A stretch of DNA of 32,000 bases from Promethearchaeota archaeon (GTDB taxonomy: Archaea; Asgardarchaeota; Lokiarchaeia; Sigyniarchaeales; Promethearchaeaceae), in contig JAFGBS010000019.1 in the NCBI GenBank assembly GCA_016933055.1, forward strand, positions 30,001-62,000. Reading direction: 5' to 3'. The notes beneath the pieces are model-generated. The model made no database searches. It was given only the letters and a program-made list of their open reading frames with translations, and was not told the DNA's origin. Position 1 is the first letter of the stretch. Every line of letters begins with the position of its first letter. The translations under genes and the position numbers were made by a program. Shown piece after piece: positions 1,409 through 29,521 of this stretch.

Positions 1409-3739
1409 GTGAAACCAGATCTGTATAGTAGTCTTGGTGCATTTTCGAACAAAACTCGGATGGAAATAGTACGATTATTATTCCAAATCGGCAATCCCGT
1501 TGGTTTTACAAAATTGATGGAAGGGATCGGGTGTGATCCCGCAAATTCCTCCAATCTTGCAAATCATTTAAAAAAATTAGTAGAATTGGGTTTAGTTGAA
1601 AAAGATTCCAGTACCTATGCTCTTACCAAGTTAGGACTACAACTTTATGATCAAATTGATGGTATCGAAAAAACAATAGAAGAACATAACAAGGATATAC
1701 TAGTACGTACTTCCGATTTCTGTTTTGAGTCTTTTGATGAGAGAAAAATCACTGAAAATCTTATTAGAGAGGCTGATTTTTCGGAAGAAGAAGCCTTTTC
1801 TCTTGCAAAAATCGCAAAGCGTAAATTATTAACTGCAGAAATCACCTATCTAACAGCTCCCCTCATCCGTGAGTATATGAATGTCATTTTATTGGAGGAA
1901 GGAAAAGAAGAGGCACGACATAAACTTACACGTTTGGGATTACCTCCGTTTGACGTAAAACAGTTACTACATCAAGGGAATTTTGAAACAAGTATAATGC
2001 TGTATAATGAACTTGGAAAACACATAATGGAACAATTCCTTCTTTTAAACCTCTTACCTCAAAGATTTGCTGATTTTTACCTATCTGGCAAGCTATTTTT
2101 TCTTCATCCTGAAAGTTGGGGATTGATTCCCCTCGAAGTAGTTATTCCAGGAGAAAAGTTTACAAAAATTATAATAGAGATGTGTGAAGAATATGATCCA
2201 GATGATCCAGAGGAACAGCCCTCATTAAACCAGTTCCTTCCCCTAGTGATTAATAACTTTTTTGAATATCTTCGTAATTTCTTTAGCGGTGGTGCGGTAA
2301 TTACAGAATTTGAATACGTTCTACGGGAACTTCATTTCCACTTCAAAAAGTCACAGGCAGCAATTCTAGATTTATTATTTGAGATGATTCCTTCGCTTAA
2401 AATCCAATACTCCCATGATAAACGTACAAATCATAGCAAGATTTGGGAGCTTTGGATTGAAATTGATCTTAACAATTTAGACACATACAGTGATGAAATT
2501 GAATGCATTATAAATAAATATCATGAAGATATTCGAAAATGTTCACCAGATTTTTCAAGTGGATTAATATACAAACCCAATCTTATAATGAATTTCTCAC
2601 CCCAATGTAAAACTATTATTCTGGACGCAAAACAGTTCACTGATCTACCCGAAATTTACCAAAAAATATTGGAAATTTCGCAGTCTCATAATATAACGAT
2701 TATATCCCCACCTGCGCTTAAAAGTCAAAAATTTAAAAAAATGATAATCACTCCCCACTTGAATCCAATATATATCGATAACACTTCCGAATCTATACTA
2801 GTATTGGATAAAATATATGTAAACCTCCCAAAGATCATCCAAATCAGTGAAAATCCTCCAACCTCCCATAGTTCAAGAGTAGCGTGTGCATTTACGACCA
2901 AGAGTTCTTTTTCTTTAGATAAAACTAAAGAAGATATCGAGAGAGATATTAACAAATTCACTGAAACTCTAAAAGAATGGATCTGCCATGCAATCAACCT
3001 TTTTGACGAGAAAATGGCTCTTATATCGAAAAATATCGGGAAATTCAAACTGTGGAACTCCGTATCCAAAAAGGTGTTTAACAGGGATCTATTCCAAAAA
3101 CCGACGGATTTAATTGATTATGATGGACACATCCCTATATTTTGTGGGATTTGTTTAAACGGTTTAACAGAAACAGTGCAATATTTCACAGGATTTTCAG
3201 CGGATAAACACTCGGAATCATTCGCATTTTTAACCAAAATACTTTCTACAGTTTCCAATTTATTGAAAAGTAATTCACAACCGAATGGTGTTAGCTATGT
3301 ACTGAGTCAAGCCCACCTAGACAATTACCTCCATGTTAGATTTCACCAAGATTCGAGTTTAATACATTATTTGATGCAAAACAAGATATCACTGGAAAAT
3401 GATCAAGAAAATCAAAACAAAGATAAATCGGTGTATGCTCATTCAGTATTTAACAACCATACCGTTTATAATTTGAAAAAACTCGCTCATAATTTCAAAA
3501 TATATCAAAAAGATATGGATCTTGCGTATCTAAATATTGATATTACCCACCCATTAGAAACCTCGCATTTATTGGGTTCATTTAAGACTATTTTAAGGAA
3601 TCGAATCCATTCATTCGGGTTCTCACGGATTATAAATTACCAACATTCATCTTTATATCGATATGCTGGCTCTTACAAACCCCTTTCCTATTATCATTCC
3701 CCCATTCAAGAACTAATCCGACAAAAACCTACAAAGTGA
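1409..3739 (+). CDS. ArsR-like wHTH + ATP-cone + degenerate class III (NrdD-like) ribonucleotide reductase domain; probable pseudoenzyme or regulator
   Basis: N-terminal HTH (SNKTRMEIVRLL...LANHLKKLVELGLVEK). ATP-cone (VRTS...FDERKI...YLTAPLIREYMN). NrdD-like segments RHKLTRLGLP, VNLPKI, GICLNGLTETV and C-terminal RYAGSY. GTG start with GAGGG upstream. Confidence 0.75.
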   Translation: MKPDLYSSLGAFSNKTRMEIVRLLFQIGNPVGFTKLMEGIGCDPANSSNLANHLKKLVELGLVEKDSSTYALTKLGLQLYDQIDGIEKTIEEHNKDILVRTSDFCFESFDERKITENLIREADFSEEEAFSLAKIAKRKLLTAEITYLTAPLIREYMNVILLEEGKEEARHKLTRLGLPPFDVKQLLHQGNFETSIMLYNELGKHIMEQFLLLNLLPQRFADFYLSGKLFFLHPESWGLIPLEVVIPGEKFTKIIIEMCEEYDPDDPEEQPSLNQFLPLVINNFFEYLRNFFSGGAVITEFEYVLRELHFHFKKSQAAILDLLFEMIPSLKIQYSHDKRTNHSKIWELWIEIDLNNLDTYSDEIECIINKYHEDIRKCSPDFSSGLIYKPNLIMNFSPQCKTIILDAKQFTDLPEIYQKILEISQSHNITIISPPALKSQKFKKMIITPHLNPIYIDNTSESILVLDKIYVNLPKIIQISENPPTSHSSRVACAFTTKSSFSLDKTKEDIERDINKFTETLKEWICHAINLFDEKMALISKNIGKFKLWNSVSKKVFNRDLFQKPTDLIDYDGHIPIFCGICLNGLTETVQYFTGFSADKHSESFAFLTKILSTVSNLLKSNSQPNGVSYVLSQAHLDNYLHVRFHQDSSLIHYLMQNKISLENDQENQNKDKSVYAHSVFNNHTVYNLKKLAHNFKIYQKDMDLAYLNIDITHPLETSHLLGSFKTILRNRIHSFGFSRIINYQHSSLYRYAGSYKPLSYYHSPIQELIRQKPTK

Positions 3740-16566: not shown

Positions 16567-17694
16567 TTAAGGCATCCGTCTTCGTTTAATACGTTTTAAT
16601 CGTTTATCTAGTTTTTCTGTAAGCTCATCAAAAACTGTGTTTAAATCCCACCCTCCTGCAGAGACAGACACAACATTACTTGGAATAAATGCTCGGGCTT
16701 TTACCTCAAACCTTCTTTTTTTTCCTGTCGATGATTTTACTCGACCATCTACTATAATTTCTTGAAGATCCGGATGAAATTCGAGACTTGCTGAAGTGAT
16801 TCGCTCAATTTTTCGCATAGCAGAATCTACAATGCTTTTATCAAAGTCCTTGAAACCAGATTTGATTATTGGGAGTTGAACAGCTGGTATAAATTGAGTT
16901 ATTAGAGTTATAATATCCCGGGGAGTAATAATTCCAACTGGGATGGAGTCTTCTATAACAAGGCAATAACCCTTGCTTTTAGTGATCATTTTGCGAATCA
17001 CATTTAATACACTTGTGTTTCGTGTAACTTTAAGAGGGTGTTTGTCATAAGTTTCTTTAATACCTTTTTCCCAAATTCTTATGTTATTACCTATTCTCTC
17101 CCCGACTTTTTGACTTTCACTTGGTTGGATATAATTAATTACCAAATCTTTCGCTGTTAATATACCTAAAAGTTTTCCATCTCTACCTACTACGGGTAAG
17201 TGACTTATTCCCTTATTACGCATGTGTTCCCTAACTACACTTATTGAGGAGTGTATCTCAACTGTAACTATATCTTGTACCATTAACTCATCTGCGGTAA
17301 GCCCTTTTAGATCTTTACAAGATGCCATTTTGCTTAAGAGTGTATTTTGTCGCACTATTCCTTCTACGGATTTATTTTCTCTTACCAGTAAAATTCGGAC
17401 TTTATAATCAATAAAAATCCTCGCAATGTCATAAATAGGAGTTTCTTGGGTTACACTTGGAGGTTCTATCGTGACACTTGCAACGGGAGTTCTTTCAGGA
17501 TGAGTTACTTCTAAAACATCTCTAACCGTAACAAGCTTTGATTGTTGACCATTTGTTACTACCACTTCGTAACTTTTTGATGACTTAAAAAGGGAAATCA
17601 ACTTAGAAATGTATTCAGAAGACTTAATTACTGGATAATTTTGCTCAATTATTTCACTAGCTGAAGATTCTGCAAGATTTTTTAAAAACTTCAT
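16567..17694 (-). CDS. Four-CBS-domain protein with a C-terminal HPF/RaiA-like domain (putative archaeal ribosome hibernation factor)
   Basis: CBS repeats (e.g. ISHLPVVGRDGKLLGILTAKDL, PVGIITPRDII), followed by a ~100-aa beta-alpha-beta-beta-beta-alpha domain (FEVKARAFIP...GWDLNTVFDELTEKLDKRL) with a basic tail. Confidence 0.75.
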   Translation of the reverse strand: MKFLKNLAESSASEIIEQNYPVIKSSEYISKLISLFKSSKSYEVVVTNGQQSKLVTVRDVLEVTHPERTPVASVTIEPPSVTQETPIYDIARIFIDYKVRILLVRENKSVEGIVRQNTLLSKMASCKDLKGLTADELMVQDIVTVEIHSSISVVREHMRNKGISHLPVVGRDGKLLGILTAKDLVINYIQPSESQKVGERIGNNIRIWEKGIKETYDKHPLKVTRNTSVLNVIRKMITKSKGYCLVIEDSIPVGIITPRDIITLITQFIPAVQLPIIKSGFKDFDKSIVDSAMRKIERITSASLEFHPDLQEIIVDGRVKSSTGKKRRFEVKARAFIPSNVVSVSAGGWDLNTVFDELTEKLDKRLKRIKRRRMP

Positions 17695-18083: not shown

Positions 18084-18956
18084 TTATGCCTTTTTTTCTG
18101 CACGGATTCGTTTAAGAAAAGATAAATAAGTATTTTCTAATAGCATTGCAATAGTCATGGGACCCACGCCCCCGGGCACGGGAGTAATAGCCGTACATTT
18201 ATCCTTTATACCCTCAAAATCCGCATCTCCGCATAATTTACCTTTTTCATCGCGATTAATCCCCGCATCAATATATACAACACCCTCCTTAATTCGATCC
18301 TTGGTAACAAAATTTACTCGGCCTACACCCGTAACTAGTATATCTGCCCTTCTCATATGGAAATCCAGATCTTTAGTTCTTGTATGACATACGGTGACTG
18401 TTCCATTTCGTTTAAGGAACATCATAACCAAGGGTTTTCCGATTATGATAGAACGATTCACAATTACGACTTCTTTTCCCTCAATTTTGATGTCATATTC
18501 TTCCAAAAGTCGAATCATTCCCTTGGGAGTAGCCGCAGTATAAGTTTCATCTCCCATGGTGGTTAATCCGATGGTATATGGACTAAGACCATCTACATCT
18601 TTTTCTGGAGAAATTTTTTGAACAATTTCATCAGTTCTATTTCGTAAATGGGGGGGAAGAGGTAATTGTAGTAATATTCCGTCTATATCATCCATATAAT
18701 TAATTTCATCAATTGCCGCAACTAATTGGGAAAATGAACAGTTTTCTGGCAAATGAACGCTCTTAGAAGTGATCCCTACTTGGTCGCACGCTTTGATTTT
18801 CATATCAACATACATTTTGCTTGCGGCATCCTCTCCGACAAGTATAGTACTTAATCCAGGGTGCCTGTCATGCAATTTTACAGATTGGATTATCTTTTCT
18901 TGCAGTTCTAGTTTGATTTTTTCAGAAGTCTTTTTTCCATCTAAGATTAGTCCCAT
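18084..18956 (-). CDS. folD: Bifunctional methylenetetrahydrofolate dehydrogenase/cyclohydrolase
   Basis: ILDGKK, YVDMKIKAC, DGILLQLPLP, EKDVDGL, NRSIIIGKP, CHTRT, TPVPGGVGPMT. The real start is probably the ATG at 18956, not 19079 (which would overlap the upstream gene). Confidence 0.96.
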   Translation of the reverse strand: MGLILDGKKTSEKIKLELQEKIIQSVKLHDRHPGLSTILVGEDAASKMYVDMKIKACDQVGITSKSVHLPENCSFSQLVAAIDEINYMDDIDGILLQLPLPPHLRNRTDEIVQKISPEKDVDGLSPYTIGLTTMGDETYTAATPKGMIRLLEEYDIKIEGKEVVIVNRSIIIGKPLVMMFLKRNGTVTVCHTRTKDLDFHMRRADILVTGVGRVNFVTKDRIKEGVVYIDAGINRDEKGKLCGDADFEGIKDKCTAITPVPGGVGPMTIAMLLENTYLSFLKRIRAEKKA

Positions 18957-18991
18957 ATACAATAAACACGAAAGCACCTTTAAAAAAAGGA

Positions 18992-20125
18992 CTATAATTT
19001 TATTCTTCGTTGATATAAAATTACTCCGGTAATTGCAGCACCTAAAACGACTAGAACTATAATGAGAACGATCCACCAACGTAATTTATAATCACCAAAC
19101 TGCTCTGAAAGTGCAGATAATTCAGGATTGATATTATTAAGTATACTAAGAGCTTGATGGGTGGTGATTGTAGAGGATCGTCTTTCCGTTCCAAGTAATA
19201 CATTTTCTGAAAATCCACCATCATCTGGGTTCTGATTACTGAGTATCCAATCGAGAGTTGCTTGTTGATCTTGTACCGAGAAACCTATGGAATAAAGAGT
19301 CATTACTGCTTCATAAGTTGCTCTTACTGTAGCAAAAGGCAGTTCAGACTCAGGGTTATAGGAAAATCCTCCATAATGACCGACTGAATTTACATCATCG
19401 ACATAAAACTGGGATACATACTCGTGAACTAAAGTTTTGTTTTCAAATTCTGATAATGTTCCTAAATACCATAAGGTTTGTATTGCTTGGTATGTAGAAG
19501 TAAGGGAAGATTCGGTTGCAGTAGGGGAATATTTAAAGCCACCATCTGTATGTAGTAATCCCGTTATGAAATTCGTTATATTCGTTATTTCTAAATCCTC
19601 TATAACATCCATTAAATAGTAACTTTTTACTATTAAATAGGTCCCTGCTATTGAAGCATTTAATCCCAATTCCATCGTATATCCTATTGCGTCCCCGTAG
19701 ATTTCGGTGAAATTAGATGCAAACTCCTTGAAATTATTTACTCCATTCCAATAATCAATATTATCAATATAATATAAGCCTTCAATACCATAAGTGGAAT
19801 TCTGTATCATTTCCAAATCCATACCCCAATTAGTCCGATCCCTTAACCAGACTCGAACTTTATCGATATCAGCCTCATCCGTTGCATCGAGAAGATATAA
19901 ACCTCCCAAAGCTGATTTTGTAGTCATTATAGTTTCGATTTCATCATTGCTATCTTCATATTGATTAAATTCGCTAAAAGATCCCCAAACATCGTCTTCT
20001 GTGCTTAATATAAAATCGATTGTATATTCTCTTCGGGTTTTACACAACCCAAAGGTAGGAAAGACCACTAACCCAATAATTACTAAAACTGGTATAAGTG
20101 AATAAAATGTTCGCTTTTTTATCAT
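18992..20125 (-). CDS. Prenyltransferase/squalene-oxidase-repeat (alpha/alpha toroid) protein with an N-terminal signal and C-terminal TM anchor
   Basis: Repeated DGGF/GGF motifs (LHTDGGFKY, HYGGFSYNP, QNPDDGGFSE), each followed by T..A...L helices. Hydrophobic N-terminus and C-terminal TM with a QRRIKL tail. Confidence 0.8.
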   Translation of the reverse strand: MIKKRTFYSLIPVLVIIGLVVFPTFGLCKTRREYTIDFILSTEDDVWGSFSEFNQYEDSNDEIETIMTTKSALGGLYLLDATDEADIDKVRVWLRDRTNWGMDLEMIQNSTYGIEGLYYIDNIDYWNGVNNFKEFASNFTEIYGDAIGYTMELGLNASIAGTYLIVKSYYLMDVIEDLEITNITNFITGLLHTDGGFKYSPTATESSLTSTYQAIQTLWYLGTLSEFENKTLVHEYVSQFYVDDVNSVGHYGGFSYNPESELPFATVRATYEAVMTLYSIGFSVQDQQATLDWILSNQNPDDGGFSENVLLGTERRSSTITTHQALSILNNINPELSALSEQFGDYKLRWWIVLIIVLVVLGAAITGVILYQRRIKL

Positions 20126-20214
20126 ATTAATCGCTCATTTAGGGACCGCTTCAACAGTCTCGTAGAATATTAATTTAGTTAAAAGTAGTAAAGATAAAAA
20201 GATTGTTAGTACAT

Positions 20215-21744
20215 TCATAGAAGTTGAGAAAAATCTAAACCGATAGTATCTGGATTTTCGAGATACTTCTCATATGTAATAAACAGTTTCTGAGCACTTG
20301 GGATAGATCCCAAAATCGACGCACCATTAAAAATTGCGGTATTCCGTTTTGCGGGTAACACGATTTTGATAATATCTCCGCCATCGTCGGCAAATGTGTC
20401 CTCTTCGAACTCTGTCGCCTTAATTGCCTGCAAATCTTTAATTTTGGGTATAAATTCTTCCGATCCAAATTTTTTTGGGCTATTCAAGGGAATTGGCACT
20501 ATCTTTCCCCCACAAAAGGGACAAAACGAACTTTTACCTTCTAATTTTTTTTTGCAGTGAGGACATTTATTGGGGTATTCAAAGTCGGAAGGAATATTTA
20601 TGGTAGTAGCACCAAATATGTAACCGCATTTAGAGCAAATTTTTGTGGTTGCGAGATTTACGCGTTCCCCGCATTTTGGACAAGTATCCATCATTTTAGT
20701 GGGAGTGTCAACATTAATCATTCGCGGTTTTTCCAACGATTTTCTTGATATTGATGGCTTAGGTAACGGACCCAGCTGAGGTAATAACTGTTTTAATTCT
20801 TCTTCTAAACGAAAATTCAATCCTTGGAACATGGTATTACCCCCCGATAACACGATACTTTTTAGCATGGTTCTCCAGTATTGTTTATCCAGTTTCGATA
20901 AGGAATTAATGATTGCTTGTGCAATATTGGATACATTATACCCTAACAATTCAGGATGAAACAAGATTTCAGGTGCATTTACTCGGACACTCATTGGAAA
21001 TTTTACAGATTCTCCATCGGGTAAAATGTACGACGTGATATCCTTATTGTGCTTTGCAACTTCTTCGGGATTTAGTGCAATAAAACAGGTTTTTTCTTTT
21101 ATATCGCGTAAAATTTCCTTTTGAGCTGTAGACGTGATATTAACTCCATATCCTAGCAGTAGTGTACGTAAATATTCTGATACATCTTTTCCCGATAGAG
21201 TTAATTTCTGAACTGCATGAGTAACTACTTCTCCATCTATGATTGGAACAATCCATGTTAGACCCTCACCACTTTCCACTAACATTCCAGTGGTTAATCC
21301 CGCACTAAATAATGCCATCACCGGTGCATTAGCAATATATACACTTCTCACTCGATAAGTTTCAAAAAAGAGCCGTGTAATGTATTTTTTCGTATCTAGA
21401 GGAGTTAATGCATTTTCGGGATAAATAACTTTGACTTTTGAAGGATCAGTTCGTAGAACATTATAAAAAATGTGAGTCAATACAGAATAGTAACTATCCC
21501 AATCCATAATTGCTCCACGGTTAAAAGGATAAGTTATTTTAAGTACTCCACGCATACGCATGCAATCTTCGCCAACATACTGATCCTTGGTATCAACATC
21601 CGCCATTACTGATTTGTATTTTTCCTTCCCCGTCATTGTGGGAAAAATAACTGGTTGCTCATCACCAGCAAAGCCTACTTTTGTATAGGCTTCTCCGATA
21701 TCAATTATGACTATCTGCTCGTCTTCAGGTGTGGATTGCGTCAT
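20215..21744 (-). CDS. Actin-related protein with an inserted double zinc ribbon
   Basis: IIDIGEAYTKVGFAGD, YVGED, YPFNRGAIMDWD, ESGEG, IKEKTCFIA, LPDG, APEILFHP, IVLSGGNTMFQG, IFNGASILGS. Insert carries four CxxC pairs. Confidence 0.93.
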   Translation of the reverse strand: MTQSTPEDEQIVIIDIGEAYTKVGFAGDEQPVIFPTMTGKEKYKSVMADVDTKDQYVGEDCMRMRGVLKITYPFNRGAIMDWDSYYSVLTHIFYNVLRTDPSKVKVIYPENALTPLDTKKYITRLFFETYRVRSVYIANAPVMALFSAGLTTGMLVESGEGLTWIVPIIDGEVVTHAVQKLTLSGKDVSEYLRTLLLGYGVNITSTAQKEILRDIKEKTCFIALNPEEVAKHNKDITSYILPDGESVKFPMSVRVNAPEILFHPELLGYNVSNIAQAIINSLSKLDKQYWRTMLKSIVLSGGNTMFQGLNFRLEEELKQLLPQLGPLPKPSISRKSLEKPRMINVDTPTKMMDTCPKCGERVNLATTKICSKCGYIFGATTINIPSDFEYPNKCPHCKKKLEGKSSFCPFCGGKIVPIPLNSPKKFGSEEFIPKIKDLQAIKATEFEEDTFADDGGDIIKIVLPAKRNTAIFNGASILGSIPSAQKLFITYEKYLENPDTIGLDFSQLL

Positions 21745-23496: not shown

Positions 23497-24459
23497 TCAG
23501 AAAATAATTTTGATTGCGTATTTATTGTCGATTTTAACTTTATCTGCAAGCCCTTGTTTTGCGATAATGTTAAAAATTCTATTAATATCTTCCTCGGGAA
23601 GATTGCTAAATTCTTGATTTGCTTCTCGAATATCTTCAATGAAGATAGGTTCTGTAAATGCAACGTTTTTTGCCCAATCCACTATAGAATCAGCCCAGAA
23701 CTCTAATGATTTCCAATATATACGTAATTTTTCCTTTTTCTTATCTAGAAATTCTGCGACCTTCTGTTTTATTAACCCGTCAGCGAGTTCTTGAATAACA
23801 TTCGTTCTATCTTTAAACTCACTCCACGGTTTTTCGGATAATAATTCTTTGGTATAGATAATATGTTTCGCAGCCATTTGTGCATAATCAAACAGCACTT
23901 TTGACCAATCATCTAACCAAGATTCATAATCTTTCTTGTTTTTTCGCTTATCCGGCATCGAATACATAAATCCATACGCTGGTTCTTTCAACCATGTATA
24001 TTCTTCACAGAGCTGATCAAAAATGGAAACTACTACAGCCGCTTTGGTTTGTTCTAACTCGATCTCTTGTTCTAATCTATGAATTTCATCATCAATCGAA
24101 GCAAGATCTGCTTTACTTAATTCAACTTTACCAGTTTCATTGGAAACTCCAGCTAATTTATTGAGTATCGAGGATAATTTATATTCTTCCTCTTCCAAAG
24201 TGGAATGAGCCACTTCGTGAGCAATGGATGATTCCAAATCTGTTAATTCTGATTTAATTTGATCGTTTACTTCAAATTCTTCTGTACCTGCGAGGAGTTT
24301 GACATCAATTATCTTTTGCTGGGCTAAAATTTCCTCTTGCTTTTCCATTTCTGCAAGTTTTTGTTTTAGTCTTCTCAATTTCTGGAGTTTTGCAGTTCTT
24401 TCTTTCTCTAATTGACTGCTTTCTTGCTTTTCAGGTTTTTTCTTCTCTATTTCAGCCAT
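23497..24459 (-). CDS. vps25: Vps25-like (ESCRT-II) tandem winged-helix domain fused to a ~150-aa N-terminal coiled coil
   Basis: W..DWSKVLFDY, LRIYWKSLEFWADSIVDWA, EFSNLPEEDINRIFNIIAKQG and terminal AIKIIF match the Vps25 pattern (IYWRxPEEWAxxIxxW...GVKF). ATG at 24459 preferred; 24474 is possible. Confidence 0.8.
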   Translation of the reverse strand: MAEIEKKKPEKQESSQLEKERTAKLQKLRRLKQKLAEMEKQEEILAQQKIIDVKLLAGTEEFEVNDQIKSELTDLESSIAHEVAHSTLEEEEYKLSSILNKLAGVSNETGKVELSKADLASIDDEIHRLEQEIELEQTKAAVVVSIFDQLCEEYTWLKEPAYGFMYSMPDKRKNKKDYESWLDDWSKVLFDYAQMAAKHIIYTKELLSEKPWSEFKDRTNVIQELADGLIKQKVAEFLDKKKEKLRIYWKSLEFWADSIVDWAKNVAFTEPIFIEDIREANQEFSNLPEEDINRIFNIIAKQGLADKVKIDNKYAIKIIF

Positions 24460-24491
24460 GGCACAAACCCCCATTGGCTAAAGAAATTAAA

Positions 24492-25721
24492 TTATCCTCC
24501 AAATTCTTCTCTCCAATCCTCAAAACGCTGGATCTCTTCCTCACTTACGGTAGGTCGAATCTTTCGTAACGCATGATCAAAATCATCACGGTTAATAGGA
24601 CGAACTTGAACATCTGAATTTCCTTCGAGTGATCCCATTTTGTCTAATTCTCGTATGGGGCGCATAATTACCTCTCTGCACACAATTGCAATGTCACTTC
24701 CGGAGTATCCTTCTGTTATTTCGGCTAATTCACGAAAATCTACACTTTGTTCTCGATCAATTCCTCTTGTATGATAGGCAAATATGGCTTCCCGGGAATC
24801 AATATCGGGTAGGGGTGTATAAATTTTTCGTTCAAATCGACGTAAGAACGCACTATCAATATCCCACGGGCGGTTGGTCGCAGCCATGATGGTTAAGAGT
24901 TTCTTCGCAGTACTTCCTCCGCCTTTTACACCTTGGATCTCTTGGAGGAGCTGAGTTTTCAAACGACGTTCACCCCCTCCTTCGGAGGCGCCACCGCGTG
25001 TACCTGCAACAGAATCAATTTCATCAAAAAAGACAATACTCGGTGCCTTTCTTCGAGCAACATCAAATAAAGCGCGCACTAATTTTTCAGATTCCCCGAG
25101 CCATTTACTCATAATACTAGCGGAATCAGCAACAAAGAAAGTACATTTTATTTCATTTGCAGCTGCTTTGGCGAGCATAGTCTTACCACAACCCGGGGGT
25201 CCAAAAAGTAATATGCCTGACCATGGTTGTCGTGCACCGGTGAATAGCTCGGGTCGTTTTAACGGGAGAACTACAGCTTCACGAAGTGCTTGTTTGGGAT
25301 CAGGTAAACCGGCAATATCTTCCCAAGAAATATCGGGTTTTTCGATTAAAACCGTCCCCATGACCATCTTTTCCATTTCAAGTTCTTCTTCGGTTAATTC
25401 TTCTTCCTCTCCTTCTGCTTCCCCTTCCTCGCTATCTTTTCGTACGGAAGTGGATTTACCCGATAGAGAGGATCGTAATCGAACTCGCTTAGTTCCCATG
25501 CTCTTTAATTCGTCTGCACGATCTAAATATTCATGCGCTTTATCGGACCACATTTGTTTCATATTCGCATTTTTGGTGTATTTCGTGCATTCCACTAAGA
25601 TCTCAGCAGCTTTAATATAATTTATGGTCGCTTCCCGGTAGTTTTTTGCTCTATCAAATGCAATCGCTTGCGATGCGATTTGTTTTGCATATTTAAGCAT
25701 TTTTGAATCTGTTGAGGACAT
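24492..25721 (-). CDS. vps4: Vps4-like AAA+ ATPase with an N-terminal MIT domain
   Basis: MIT (AKQIASQAIAFDRAKNYREA...YLDRADELK), GPPGCGKT, pore loop SKWLGESEK, FFDEID, ATNRPWDIDSAFLRRFE, C-terminal FEDWREEFG. Confidence 0.93.
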   Translation of the reverse strand: MSSTDSKMLKYAKQIASQAIAFDRAKNYREATINYIKAAEILVECTKYTKNANMKQMWSDKAHEYLDRADELKSMGTKRVRLRSSLSGKSTSVRKDSEEGEAEGEEEELTEEELEMEKMVMGTVLIEKPDISWEDIAGLPDPKQALREAVVLPLKRPELFTGARQPWSGILLFGPPGCGKTMLAKAAANEIKCTFFVADSASIMSKWLGESEKLVRALFDVARRKAPSIVFFDEIDSVAGTRGGASEGGGERRLKTQLLQEIQGVKGGGSTAKKLLTIMAATNRPWDIDSAFLRRFERKIYTPLPDIDSREAIFAYHTRGIDREQSVDFRELAEITEGYSGSDIAIVCREVIMRPIRELDKMGSLEGNSDVQVRPINRDDFDHALRKIRPTVSEEEIQRFEDWREEFGG

Positions 25722-29053: not shown

Positions 29054-29521
29054 TTAAAAAATATGATCAAATCGTTCAGAAGGGGTTTCTTTCAAATCTT
29101 GAAGCACTTCATCAAAAACAGGTAGAAAGGAATTGAATTTTGATGATTGGATCGTCGACATTTTATGAGCTTTGGGAAATTGGGTTAAAAATTTCTCTTG
29201 TATTTTTTCCAGTAAATCCGATAATAATTGTACATTCATTTCTTTATCTCCGATTCCATAAAAGATCAGATGTGGAGCTTTTTGAAGCGCCTCTGGAGTA
29301 ATCTCTTTAAAGGGACTAGTCAGCACAATTTTGTAGTTTTTCATATTAAGAGTACTGATATTTTGAGATAACACTACCCTACTCATGTTTAAAATTGCAT
29401 CTAATAAGGCATTTCTCAGATCGGGGTCATTATTAATTTTATTTAAATTGGAATCCGATGAATATTGCTTGTAAAGTATACTAACTCCATTAAGAATGAT
29501 TCCAACCTCGGAAACGTTCAT
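29054..29521 (-). CDS. Longin-like domain protein
   Basis: beta-beta-alpha-beta-beta-beta-alpha-alpha pattern: EVGIILNGVSILYKQY, DPDLRNALLDAILNMS, NYKIVL, LIFYGIGD, LLEKIQEKFLTQF, FNSFLPVFDEVL. Confidence 0.7.
   Translation of the reverse strand: MNVSEVGIILNGVSILYKQYSSDSNLNKINNDPDLRNALLDAILNMSRVVLSQNISTLNMKNYKIVLTSPFKEITPEALQKAPHLIFYGIGDKEMNVQLLSDLLEKIQEKFLTQFPKAHKMSTIQSSKFNSFLPVFDEVLQDLKETPSERFDHIF

What the first reader, a model, noticed from the sequence alone, without database searches (positions are those of the whole stretch)
20377..20778. Actin-related protein carrying a ~130-aa double zinc-ribbon insertion
Seen: between EEELKQLLP (actin KEITALAP) and IIKIVLPAKR (actin KIKIIAPPER), aa ~323-456 are inserted. 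The insert has a Pro/Lys-rich linker, CPKC-x11-CSKC, CPHC-x10-CPFC and an acidic EFEEDTFADD segment, and the actin fold resumes intact afterwards. Known: this subdomain-3 loop (actin ~322-327) makes long-pitch filament contacts, and Arp2/Arp3 have only short inserts here. I know of no characterised actin with a zinc-ribbon insert. Inference: a specialised Asgard ARP that caps or nucleates filaments, or uses the zinc ribbons to dock onto membranes, ubiquitin-like proteins or nucleic acid. This is the strongest candidate for an undescribed system in the window.
Basis: partly seen in the sequence, partly recalled or inferred. Interest (0 to 1): 0.9.

Follow-up and report, generated by a model that had tools for sequence, protein, structure and literature searches.

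The report
Lokiarchaeal actin relative with zinc ribbons
This is a real, strongly conserved actin-like gene of Loki-type Asgard archaea in which two small zinc-binding modules on flexible tethers are spliced into the loop that ordinary actin uses to stack into filaments. Its function is untested, and it can be studied in the cultured strains.

Summary
ORF 20215-21744 (-) encodes a 509-aa actin-fold protein. Its fold is interrupted at the actin 324/325-equivalent loop by about 134 aa (window 20371-20772). The insert holds a Pro/Lys linker, two Cys4 zinc ribbons and an acidic A-x-E-F motif.

It is not a chimera. All eight cysteines are kept in 121 of 123 relatives. The architecture occurs in about 142 of 153 genomes of one Lokiarchaeia order and was not found in about 250 other Asgard genomes searched. 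An independent metagenome holds identical fragments of the insert.

The 'Ca. Lokiarchaeum ossiferum' orthologue, UYP44711.1, has only one ribbon. It was already published as an unnamed ARP in a tree and an RT-qPCR assay. No held paper describes the insert.

The family is monophyletic and lies outside lokiactin. Actin's hydrolysis residues Q137 and H161 are replaced, and the barbed-end subdomain-3 face has diverged.

My best reading (about 0.35) is a hydrolysis-poor ARP that binds lokiactin by its pointed-end face and ends or anchors filaments, presenting the ribbons to a partner.

A surface-protein gene lies downstream in 29 of 32 loci, but housekeeping folD is kept nearly as often (26 of 32).

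This scan has found the same family several times before on other DNA.

The parts
20215..21744 (-). ZnARP gene: 509-aa actin-related protein with a zinc-ribbon insert (stop codon included)
   Evidence: ORF list and translation. Pfam Actin E 6.6e-75. 327 or more homologues of the same architecture.
20773..21744 (-). Actin fold, N-terminal part (aa 1-324): subdomains 1, 2, 4 and most of 3. Phosphate loops read DIGEA and ESGEG. Actin Q137 is replaced by A141 and H161 by W164.
   Evidence: Pfam and PDB alignments. Alignment with lokiactin. AF2 pLDDT about 90 or higher.
20692..20772 (-). Insert, N-terminal tether (aa 325-351): conserved G-x-[IL]-P-K-P start followed by a variable Pro/Lys/Glu linker (family mean net charge +3.8)
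   Evidence: G325 and P328 invariant. Column counts and charges. pLDDT below 50 at 334-348.
20617..20691 (-). Zinc ribbon 1 (aa 352-376): D-T-C-P-x-C-G ... V-[DN]-L ... C-P-x-C-G, with Cys 355/358/370/373
   Evidence: Zn_Ribbon_1 and UPF0547 over their cut-offs. Cys invariant. pLDDT about 75.
20503..20571 (-). Zinc ribbon 2 (aa 392-414): C-P-x-C-x-K ... D-x-S-x-F-C-P-[YF]-C-G, with Cys 394/397/408/411. It is absent from the L. ossiferum orthologue.
   Evidence: DZR_2 over its cut-off. Column counts. L. ossiferum sequence.
20407..20418 (-). Conserved A-x-E-F motif (aa 443-446) inside an otherwise variable, acidic, disordered C-terminal tether (aa 415-458)
   Evidence: Of 122 sequences, A443 is kept in 105, E445 in 117 and F446 in 115. 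Tether mean net charge is about -3. pLDDT below 50 at 421-456.
20218..20370 (-). Actin fold, C-terminal part (aa 459-509): re-entry strand IKIVLPAKR and the last helices of subdomains 3 and 1
   Evidence: Second aligned stretch to actin. Alignment with lokiactin. pLDDT about 90.
18992..20125 (-). Conserved downstream neighbour: 377-aa predicted surface protein with a signal peptide, a prenyltransferase-like alpha/alpha-toroid domain, a C-terminal TM helix and a 4-7-aa basic tail
   Evidence: Pfam Prenyltrans E 2.8e-15. Same-strand downstream neighbour in 29 of 32 loci. Termini of 29 orthologues. The spacer is 89 bp here and 127 bp at the median.
18084..18959 (-). folD (methylene-THF dehydrogenase/cyclohydrolase), third gene of the conserved block. 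It serves here as a control for how far plain synteny inertia explains the adjacency.
   Evidence: Pfam THF_DHG_CYH and its C-terminal domain. Present in the block in 26 of 32 loci.

Best explanation
SHOWN. The gene encodes a lineage-specific actin-related protein, here called ZnARP, of one order of Lokiarchaeia.
- It keeps the actin fold and the nucleotide-binding glycines and aspartate.
- It has lost actin's water-activating residues.
- The barbed-end face of subdomain 3 has diverged from lokiactin. It carries two independent Cys4 zinc ribbons and a conserved acidic A-x-E-F motif on disordered tethers, inserted in the loop equivalent to actin 322-325.

INFERRED, most likely mechanism.
- ZnARP binds ATP but hydrolyses it poorly.
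- It engages lokiactin with its better-conserved pointed-end face (D-loop and subdomain 4), that is, at a filament barbed end or on a monomer.
- Its own longitudinal barbed-end contact is occupied by the insert, so it ends or anchors the filament instead of propagating it.
- The tethered ribbons and the A-x-E-F motif would recruit a protein partner that has not been identified.

Identity and architecture are close to certain. The confidence given below is for the mechanism.
For: Architecture and selection:
- Actin 8-323 plus 459-497, with zinc-ribbon Pfam hits in between.
- The eight Cys and the flanking motifs are conserved over 41-76% identity. 121 of 123 members have two ribbons.

Distinct ARP:
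- Monophyletic clade (SH-aLRT 100), outside the lokiactin and actin-like clade.
- Weakly (82) sister to a second lokiarchaeal ARP, which has a 4-5-aa extra at the same loop.

Hydrolysis residues:
- Q137 is replaced by A, S or T; D154 by E; H161 by W, H or S, varying within the family.
- D15, K22, G17, G159, G161 and G301-302 are invariant.

Insertion site:
- Between the actin T324 and K326 equivalents.
- From established knowledge of F-actin, recalled and not computed here, residues 322-325 contact 243-245 of the next subunit in the strand.

Face asymmetry against the lokiactin consensus (overall identity 40%):
- Kept at or above average: D-loop 41%, SD4 241-247 57%, cleft 139-148 50%, cleft 345-355 64%.
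- Diverged: SD3 283-294 25%, 326-336 18%, C-terminus 18%, lateral 110-115 17%.

Insert structure:
- AF2 gives two ribbons at pLDDT about 75 separated by linkers below 50. The insert folded alone has pTM 0.32, which fits beads on tethers rather than a packed domain.

Context:
- The genome also encodes lokiactin, a second ARP and a two-domain gelsolin.
Against: - No binding, capping or polymerisation data exist for any member.
- The lokiactin Co-IP from L. ossiferum reported profilin, five gelsolins and an ARF GTPase as enriched and does not mention any ARP (PMC13716822). Supplementary tables were not available to check this.
- The face-conservation asymmetry is a crude linear-segment measure made without coordinates.
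- The insert hangs on long flexible tethers, so it could swing clear of the interface and allow polymerisation.
- L. ossiferum lacks ribbon 2, so a two-ribbon module is not strictly required.
- No partner for the ribbons has been identified.
Confidence: 0.35

Rival explanations
1. Non-filament scaffold ARP. ZnARP stays monomeric or heterodimeric, as nuclear Arp4, Arp5 and Arp8 do in eukaryotic remodellers. It would serve as an ATP-locked structural subunit of a complex unrelated to lokiactin filaments. The ribbons would bind a protein or nucleic-acid ligand.
For: - Hydrolysis residues are lost and vary within the family.
- Lateral and barbed-end contact segments have diverged.
- No ARP is reported in the lokiactin Co-IP.
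- Eukaryotic Arp5 and Arp8 use large insertions to bind partners (recalled knowledge).
Against: - The ribbons are near-neutral or acidic.
- No DNA- or RNA-related genes are conserved next to it.
- The D-loop, the SD4 top and the hydrophobic cleft stay comparatively actin-like, which is unexpected if actin-actin contacts were abandoned.
Confidence: 0.2
2. A separate filament system. ZnARP polymerises by itself or co-polymerises along lokiactin filaments. The tethered ribbons project from the polymer surface as docking sites.
For: - The complete actin fold is kept, with a D-loop of normal length and a conserved hydrophobic cleft.
- Long disordered tethers on both sides of the ribbons could route the insert out of the interface.
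Against: - The insertion is inside the longitudinal contact loop.
- The SD3 283-294 segment, the lateral 110-115 segment and the plug segment are the most diverged parts.
- Catalytic residues that drive actin filament turnover are missing.
- L. ossiferum transcripts of the ARPs were several-fold below lokiactin (PMC9834061).
Confidence: 0.15
3. Envelope coupler. ZnARP works with the product of the conserved downstream gene, a predicted surface-exposed alpha/alpha-toroid protein anchored by one C-terminal TM helix. It would tie the cytoskeleton to the cell surface, either directly or through co-regulated expression.
For: - The neighbour lies downstream on the same strand in 29 of 32 loci from four families, although it is only 22-33% identical between them.
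- Its strong orthologues (E below 1e-80) occur only in the same order as ZnARP.
- The pair survived several rearrangements that removed folD from the block.
Against: - Housekeeping folD is kept in the same block in 26 of 32 loci, so block inertia explains adjacency nearly as well.
- The neighbour's cytoplasmic part is only a 4-7-aa basic stop-transfer tail, which leaves little to bind.
- Spacers are 41-337 bp (median 127) and usually hold T5 runs and TATA-like hexamers. They are not operon-tight, although such motifs are common in AT-rich DNA.
- Distant homologues of the neighbour exist in Asgard families that lack ZnARP.
Confidence: 0.15
4. Artefact. The insert is an assembly chimera, an intein or other mobile insertion, or the gene is a decaying pseudogene.
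For: None found.
Against: - The frame is open and the same architecture occurs in 327 or more proteins and about 142 genomes.
- The Cys are invariant.
- One 196.7-kb contig spans the gene in the probable source run.
- A different study's metagenome holds identical pieces at 20231-20388, 20412-20564 and 20543-20771.
- No intein or transposase family matches.
Confidence: 0.01

Closest known systems
Lokiactin, the conserved Asgard actin: this genome's own copy on contig C6 (381 aa), and the best PDB match 9wc4 'HC1 actin'
   Same: - Same actin fold and nucleotide-binding motifs.
- 36-39% identity over the core.
- TM about 0.9 to solved actins.
   Different: - ZnARP has the 134-aa zinc-ribbon insert at the 324/325-equivalent loop.
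- It lacks the Q137 and H161 equivalents.
- It has a diverged barbed-end SD3 face and C-terminus.
- It falls outside the lokiactin clade.
- Lokiactin occurs in all Asgard classes searched. ZnARP occurs in one order only.
'Ca. Lokiarchaeum ossiferum' ARP UYP44711.1 (NEF87_000996), one of the three unnamed ARPs of Rodrigues-Oliveira et al. 2022 (PMC9834061)
   Same: - Orthologue: 41-45% identity depending on the comparison, same clade, same insertion site, same downstream neighbour.
- Published in an actin-family tree and assayed by RT-qPCR.
   Different: - It has only ribbon 1. Ribbon 2 is replaced by a charged low-complexity stretch.
- The paper does not mention zinc or an insert.
Second lokiarchaeal ARP: own genome contig C2 (367 aa), with orthologues in L. 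ossiferum and Harpocratesius repetitus
   Same: - Weakly supported sister clade (SH-aLRT 82).
- Shares the D-I-G-[EQ] phosphate-1 loop and the D154-to-E change.
- Has a 4-5-residue extra beginning with Gly at the same loop.
   Different: - No zinc ribbons, and normal actin length.
- About 32% identity to ZnARP.
Eukaryotic ARPs with functional insertions: the Arp3 alphaK/beta15 insert, the Arp5 and Arp8 insertions, and the end-capping Arp of dynactin (recalled from the literature, not tested here)
   Same: An actin fold reused as a non-propagating, end-binding or scaffold subunit, with loops enlarged to make new contacts. The alphaK/beta15 loop of Arp3 is the same loop as the one enlarged here.
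   Different: - No orthology is shown. In PDB sequence search, conventional actins outrank every Arp.
- Eukaryotic inserts hold no zinc ribbons.
- No ARPC2 or ARPC4 was found in this genome, though the controls were silent.
Double zinc ribbon and zinc-ribbon domains (Pfam PF12773 DZR, PF18912 DZR_2, PF13240 Zn_Ribbon_1)
   Same: Two CxxC-x10-11-CxxC units. DZR_2 and Zn_Ribbon_1 pass their cut-offs. The genome's nearest stand-alone relative is the cytoplasmic C-terminal DZR tail of a membrane protein.
   Different: - Here the units are embedded in a loop of a globular enzyme fold rather than at a terminus.
- AF2 does not pack them into one domain (pTM 0.32).
- There is no significant structural neighbour in the PDB.

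Membership tests
Actin family (Pfam PF00022; actin/Hsp70/hexokinase ATPase fold) | Profile score above the curated cut-off | tested here: met
   252.7 bits against a cut-off of 27, E 6.6e-75.
Actin family (Pfam PF00022; actin/Hsp70/hexokinase ATPase fold) | Four-subdomain actin fold | tested here: met
   AF2 core pLDDT about 90 or higher. Foldseek TM about 0.89-0.93, normalised to solved actins.
Actin family (Pfam PF00022; actin/Hsp70/hexokinase ATPase fold) | Phosphate-1, phosphate-2 and adenosine motifs (Asp and Gly residues that hold the nucleotide) | tested here: met
   D15, G17, K22, G159, G161, G301 and G302 are invariant in 44 sequences.
Conventional actin / lokiactin | Hydrolysis residues equivalent to actin Q137 and H161 | tested here: not met
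   Q137 is replaced by A141 (S or T in relatives). H161 is replaced by W164 (W, H or S in relatives).
Conventional actin / lokiactin | Placement inside the lokiactin/actin clade | tested here: not met
   ZnARP forms its own clade (SH-aLRT 100) outside the lokiactin and actin-like clade. This was a quick search, and named eukaryotic Arps were not available to include.
Conventional actin / lokiactin | Uninterrupted longitudinal contact loop (actin 322-325) | tested here: not met
   A 134-aa insertion lies between the T324 and K326 equivalents.
Conventional actin / lokiactin | Polymerises into double-stranded filaments | not testable with these tools
   Needs biochemistry. The complex prediction was not run by the tool.
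Arp2/3 complex subunit (Arp2 or Arp3) | Orthology to eukaryotic Arp2 or Arp3 | tested here: inconclusive
   All 60 best PDB sequence matches are conventional actins. No named Arp2 or Arp3 sequences could be put in the tree.
Arp2/3 complex subunit (Arp2 or Arp3) | Presence of ARPC2 and ARPC4 core subunits in the genome | tested here: inconclusive
   No match for PF04045 or PF05856 in the 91%-complete genome, but nothing rang in the control genomes either.
Zinc ribbon / double zinc ribbon (PF13240, PF18912, PF12773) | Two pairs of CxxC per unit with a 10-11-residue spacer, and a profile score over the cut-off | tested here: met
   Zn_Ribbon_1 27.9/25, DZR_2 29.7/27 and UPF0547 29.4/29. PF12773 itself scores 24.8 against 27.3, just below its cut-off. 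The Cys are invariant.
Zinc ribbon / double zinc ribbon (PF13240, PF18912, PF12773) | Binds zinc | not testable with these tools
   Needs metal analysis of purified protein.
Intein or mobile insertion | Splicing blocks or a transposase/endonuclease domain in the insert | tested here: not met
   No such Pfam family matches. The insert is conserved in frame across the family.

The most novel reading that the evidence does not exclude
ZnARP is a dedicated filament-end factor of the Asgard actin cytoskeleton. It would be an actin paralogue that caps lokiactin barbed ends with its own body. Through its tethered zinc ribbons and A-x-E-F motif it would anchor those ends to a membrane-associated partner, possibly the envelope complex that includes the adjacent surface protein. 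That would be a prokaryotic way of ending and anchoring filaments with an ARP that evolved independently of eukaryotic capping protein and of the Arp2/3 and dynactin ARPs.
Probability: 0.2. Interest if true: 0.85.

Novelty: new variant of a known kind. Interest (0 to 1): 0.6.

Why it matters
[quoted passage not shown] Profilins and gelsolins have been tested, but none of the Asgard ARPs has a known role.

This ARP is nearly universal in the order that contains at least two named strains, one of them cultured (L. ossiferum and Harpocratesius repetitus). It has an unmistakable marker: zinc ribbons in a filament-contact loop.

If it caps, anchors or nucleates lokiactin, it would show how actin paralogues were first specialised as filament regulators. 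If instead it is a scaffold, it would parallel the nuclear ARPs.

Either way it can be tested directly with recombinant protein and with antibodies in the cultures.

Tried and rejected
- **Complex prediction** of lokiactin with ZnARP. The tool did not fold the pair, by its own rule about eukaryote-like chains.
- **Fold search of the insert alone** against the PDB. No match reached E 0.001. The rows were generic zinc modules such as PolD, TMEM55B and RNA polymerase subunits.
- **ESM Atlas feature search** on the insert. No usable hit.
- **Expression from public runs**. No RNA holder is listed, and the two metatranscriptome runs of the source study laid nothing.
- **Literature.** Seven full-text searches combining Asgard, lokiactin, ARP, zinc ribbon and insert, plus reading of five papers, found no description of the insert.
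- **Earlier scan note on MK-D1.** It says the architecture is listed in the MK-D1 genome paper. I could not verify this in the truncated supplement held.
- **Supplements.** Those of the 2026 Co-IP paper are not held. The 2022 supplement lists only 'Actin' orthogroups.
- **ESCRT-II and Vps4 genes** 1.7 kb upstream. They are not next to ZnARP in any of 32 other loci, so I treat them as a coincidence of this genome.
- **Genomes of the order without ZnARP.** G368 also lacks folD and the neighbour. G040 has folD 2.7 kb from a contig end. Assembly gaps are as likely as loss, so I draw no inference.
- **Promoter and terminator motifs** in the ZnARP-neighbour spacer. T5 runs and TATA-like hexamers are present, but they are expected by chance in 65% A+T DNA. 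The question is undecided.
- **Profilin Pfam model** in the genome. No match, and the controls were silent, so this is not informative.
- **Ubiquitin-binding NZF reading of the ribbons.** Ribbon 2 has the C-x2-C-x10-C-x2-C spacing of NZF fingers, but it lacks the Thr-Phe that I recall as the ubiquitin-binding signature. This was a by-eye comparison from memory, not a computed test.
Full report
**Observation.** The minus-strand ORF 20215-21744 encodes 509 aa.
- Pfam's Actin model matches aa 8-323 (E 6.6e-75).
- A phmmer search of the PDB shows the alignment to actin stopping at residue 323 and resuming at 459-497. The best hit is 9wc4 'HC1 actin' at E 3e-76, and all 60 listed hits are conventional actins.
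- Between the two stretches lie hits to zinc-ribbon models: DZR_2, Zn_Ribbon_1 and UPF0547 over their cut-offs, and DZR just under.
- An alignment with the genome's own lokiactin places the insertion between the equivalents of actin T324 and K326. The insert is aa 325-458, or window 20371-20772.

**Is it real?** Yes.
- A search of 5.8 billion proteins returned 327 hits. The best 120 were nearly all 494-586 aa long and carried both the Actin and the zinc-ribbon families.
- In a 44-sequence alignment at 41-76% identity, all eight Cys are invariant. So are G325 and P328 at the start of the insert. K350, D353, L364, F407, E445 and F446 are at least 90% conserved.
- Of 123 members, 121 have four CxxC pairs. 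The two exceptions are a truncated record and the L. ossiferum protein.
- The probable source run assembles the region in one 196.7-kb contig. A hot-spring metagenome from another study holds identical pieces at 20231-20388, 20412-20564 and 20543-20771. These lie inside the insert and cross its C-terminal junction.
- Chimera, intein and pseudogene readings are excluded.

**Who has it.** I searched 400 genomes of the phylum with the whole protein.
- Full-length matches, with open frames of about 490-566 aa, occur in about 142 of 153 genomes of the window's own GTDB order: family f1 9 of 13, f31 1 of 1, f2 128 of 135 and f32 4 of 4.
- In the other three families of the class, and in all other Asgard classes searched, the best match stops at residue about 323 and is lokiactin.
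- A search with the insert alone agrees.
- Exact-sequence look-ups identify two of the genomes as 'Ca. Lokiarchaeum ossiferum' and 'Ca. Harpocratesius repetitus'.
- The L. ossiferum orthologue is UYP44711.1. It is one of the three unnamed ARPs in the actin tree of Rodrigues-Oliveira et al., and primers were designed against it for RT-qPCR. Lokiactin transcripts were several-fold higher (PMC9834061).
- That protein has only the first ribbon.
- At 50% clustering the family forms about seven to ten clusters. The next-best hits in 1.8 billion representatives are ordinary actins.

**Relationships.** I built a quick maximum-likelihood tree of 77 actin-family proteins. It included the paralogues of 15 Asgard genomes, family representatives and 37 unnamed actin-like representatives.
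- ZnARP is monophyletic (SH-aLRT 100).
- The lokiactins form a separate clade that follows taxonomy.
- A second lokiarchaeal ARP of about 370 aa, present on contig C2 of this genome, is the weakly supported sister (82).
- The two ARPs share a D-I-G-[EQ] phosphate-1 loop and the D154-to-E change. The second ARP already has 4-5 extra residues beginning with Gly at the same loop. The large insert therefore probably grew at a site that was already permissive.
- Named eukaryotic Arps could not be included, so placement relative to Arp1, Arp2 and Arp3 remains open.

**Anatomy.**
- AlphaFold2 with the family alignment gives a confident actin core (pLDDT about 90 or higher; TM about 0.9 to solved actins). 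The insert has two ribbons at pLDDT about 75 between segments below 50, at 334-348, 380-386 and 421-456.
- Folded alone, the insert has pTM 0.32, meaning two beads on a string rather than one packed domain. It has no significant PDB neighbour.
- Family-wide mean net charges are: N-tether +3.8, ribbon 1 -2.2, ribbon 2 +1.3 and the C-tether about -3.
- A sharply conserved A-x-E-F motif sits about 13 residues before re-entry into the actin fold, in otherwise variable sequence. That is the signature of a short linear motif.
- The ribbons' near-neutral charge argues against a nucleic-acid role and for protein contacts.

**The ATPase site.**
- The nucleotide-holding residues D15, G17, K22, G159, G161 and G301-302 are invariant.
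- The equivalents of actin Q137 and H161, which position the attacking water, are A and W here. They vary within the family (S or T for Q137; W, H or S for H161). D154 is always E.
- The likely outcome is nucleotide binding with weak hydrolysis, as in several eukaryotic ARPs.

**Which faces are kept.** I compared the family consensus with a 16-sequence lokiactin consensus. Overall identity is 40%.
- At or above average: the D-loop (41%), the SD4 241-247 loop (57%) and the two sides of the hydrophobic cleft (50% and 64%).
- Well below average: the barbed-end SD3 segments 283-294 (25%) and 326-336 (18%), the C-terminus (18%) and the lateral segment 110-115 (17%).
- The insert lies in the 322-325 loop. 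In F-actin models that loop touches 243-245 of the next subunit (established knowledge, recalled).
- Together these point to a protein that can still dock by its pointed-end face but does not offer a normal barbed-end face.
- This is the basis of my preferred mechanism: a terminal or anchoring subunit on lokiactin. It is an inference from linear segments, not a structural test.
- The complex prediction I requested was not run by the tool.
- The published lokiactin Co-IP lists profilin, gelsolins and an ARF GTPase but no ARP. That counts mildly against a stable, abundant association.

**Gene context.**
- In 29 of 32 loci from four families, the next gene downstream on the same strand encodes the same kind of protein. 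It is about 370 aa, with a signal peptide ending in A-K-T-R, a prenyltransferase-like alpha/alpha-toroid domain, a V-E-F-N-W motif, one TM helix and a 4-7-residue basic tail.
- Its strong orthologues are confined to the ZnARP-bearing order. Weaker homologues of about 400 aa occur in other Asgard families that lack ZnARP.
- Earlier reports in this scan read this adjacency as a cytoskeleton-envelope link. I confirm the adjacency but weigh it lower, for three reasons.
  - Housekeeping folD is retained in the same block in 26 of 32 loci.
  - The spacer is 41-337 bp (median 127) rather than operon-tight.
  - The neighbour exposes almost nothing to the cytoplasm.
- Breakpoints between the neighbour and folD (at least four lineages) slightly outnumber those between ZnARP and the neighbour (two or three). 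This is a weak point in favour of the link.
- The ESCRT-II and Vps4 genes 1.7 kb upstream in this window are not linked to ZnARP elsewhere.

**Comparison with the known, and novelty.**
- It is a member of the actin family. It is not a lokiactin or conventional actin: the catalytic residues, the clade and the loop were all tested and not met.
- Nothing ties it to Arp2/3. No ARPC2 or ARPC4 was found, though the controls were silent.
- Its closest functional analogues are eukaryotic ARPs that enlarge loops to make new contacts or that cap filament ends. None of those carries zinc ribbons.
- The sequences are public and automatically named. One orthologue appears in a published tree. No held paper mentions the insert.
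- I therefore rate it a new variant of a known kind, namely an Asgard ARP. It is of solid interest to people working on the Asgard cytoskeleton and can be tested at once in vitro and in the cultures.
- The same family has been reported by this scan several times from other genomes. My independent tests agree with those reports on the observation and temper them on the neighbour.

Noticed in passing
window 23497-24474 (-) and 24492-25721 (-): An ESCRT-II-subunit-like gene (PF05871, E 5.6e-8) sits directly next to a Vps4 gene (MIT + AAA + Vps4_C). This is part of an Asgard ESCRT cluster, 1.7 kb upstream of ZnARP. It is not adjacent to ZnARP in 32 other loci.
   Followed up: partly
window 29054-29521 (-): A 155-aa ORF has a weak Longin-domain hit (E 3.8e-4, below the cut-off). 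In many genomes of family f2 its homologue is the fourth gene of the block ZnARP, surface protein, folD. Here it lies about 7 kb away.
   Followed up: partly
L005:9304-10803 (-) (L. ossiferum UYP44711.1): The orthologue in the cultured strain has lost zinc ribbon 2. A charged low-complexity stretch replaces it, so the second ribbon is dispensable in at least one lineage.
   Followed up: partly
L003:1345-2448 (-) (own genome, contig C2): This is a second, insert-free lokiarchaeal ARP of 367 aa. It also lacks the Q137 and H161 equivalents and has a 4-5-residue extra at the same subdomain-3 loop. It is as uncharacterised as ZnARP.
   Followed up: partly
L004:274-1758 (+) (own genome, contig C28): A 494-aa membrane protein has a Gly/Arg/aromatic-rich N-terminus and a C-terminal cytoplasmic double zinc ribbon. 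It is the closest stand-alone relative of the insert in this genome (30% identity over aa 329-415).
   Followed up: no
window 16567-17694 (-): A 375-aa protein combines three CBS domains with a C-terminal ribosome-hibernation (S30AE/HPF-like) domain, an unusual fusion.
   Followed up: no
window 18084-19079 (-): The longest folD frame starts at a TTG that overlaps the 3' end of the upstream surface-protein gene by 88 nt. Pfam coverage and the orthologues fit the internal ATG at 18959 (M-G-L-I-L-D-G-K-K).
   Followed up: partly
window 19786-21344 (run X2): A 2017 hot-spring metagenome from a different study holds fragments identical to this sediment-derived contig, with no differences in 1.1 kb. 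The same strain or a near-clone seems to occur in both samples.
   Followed up: no
window 1409-3739 (+): A 776-aa protein has an N-terminal winged-helix (ArsR-like, DUF7347) and a weak, partial match to anaerobic ribonucleotide reductase (NRDD, E 1.1e-4).
   Followed up: no
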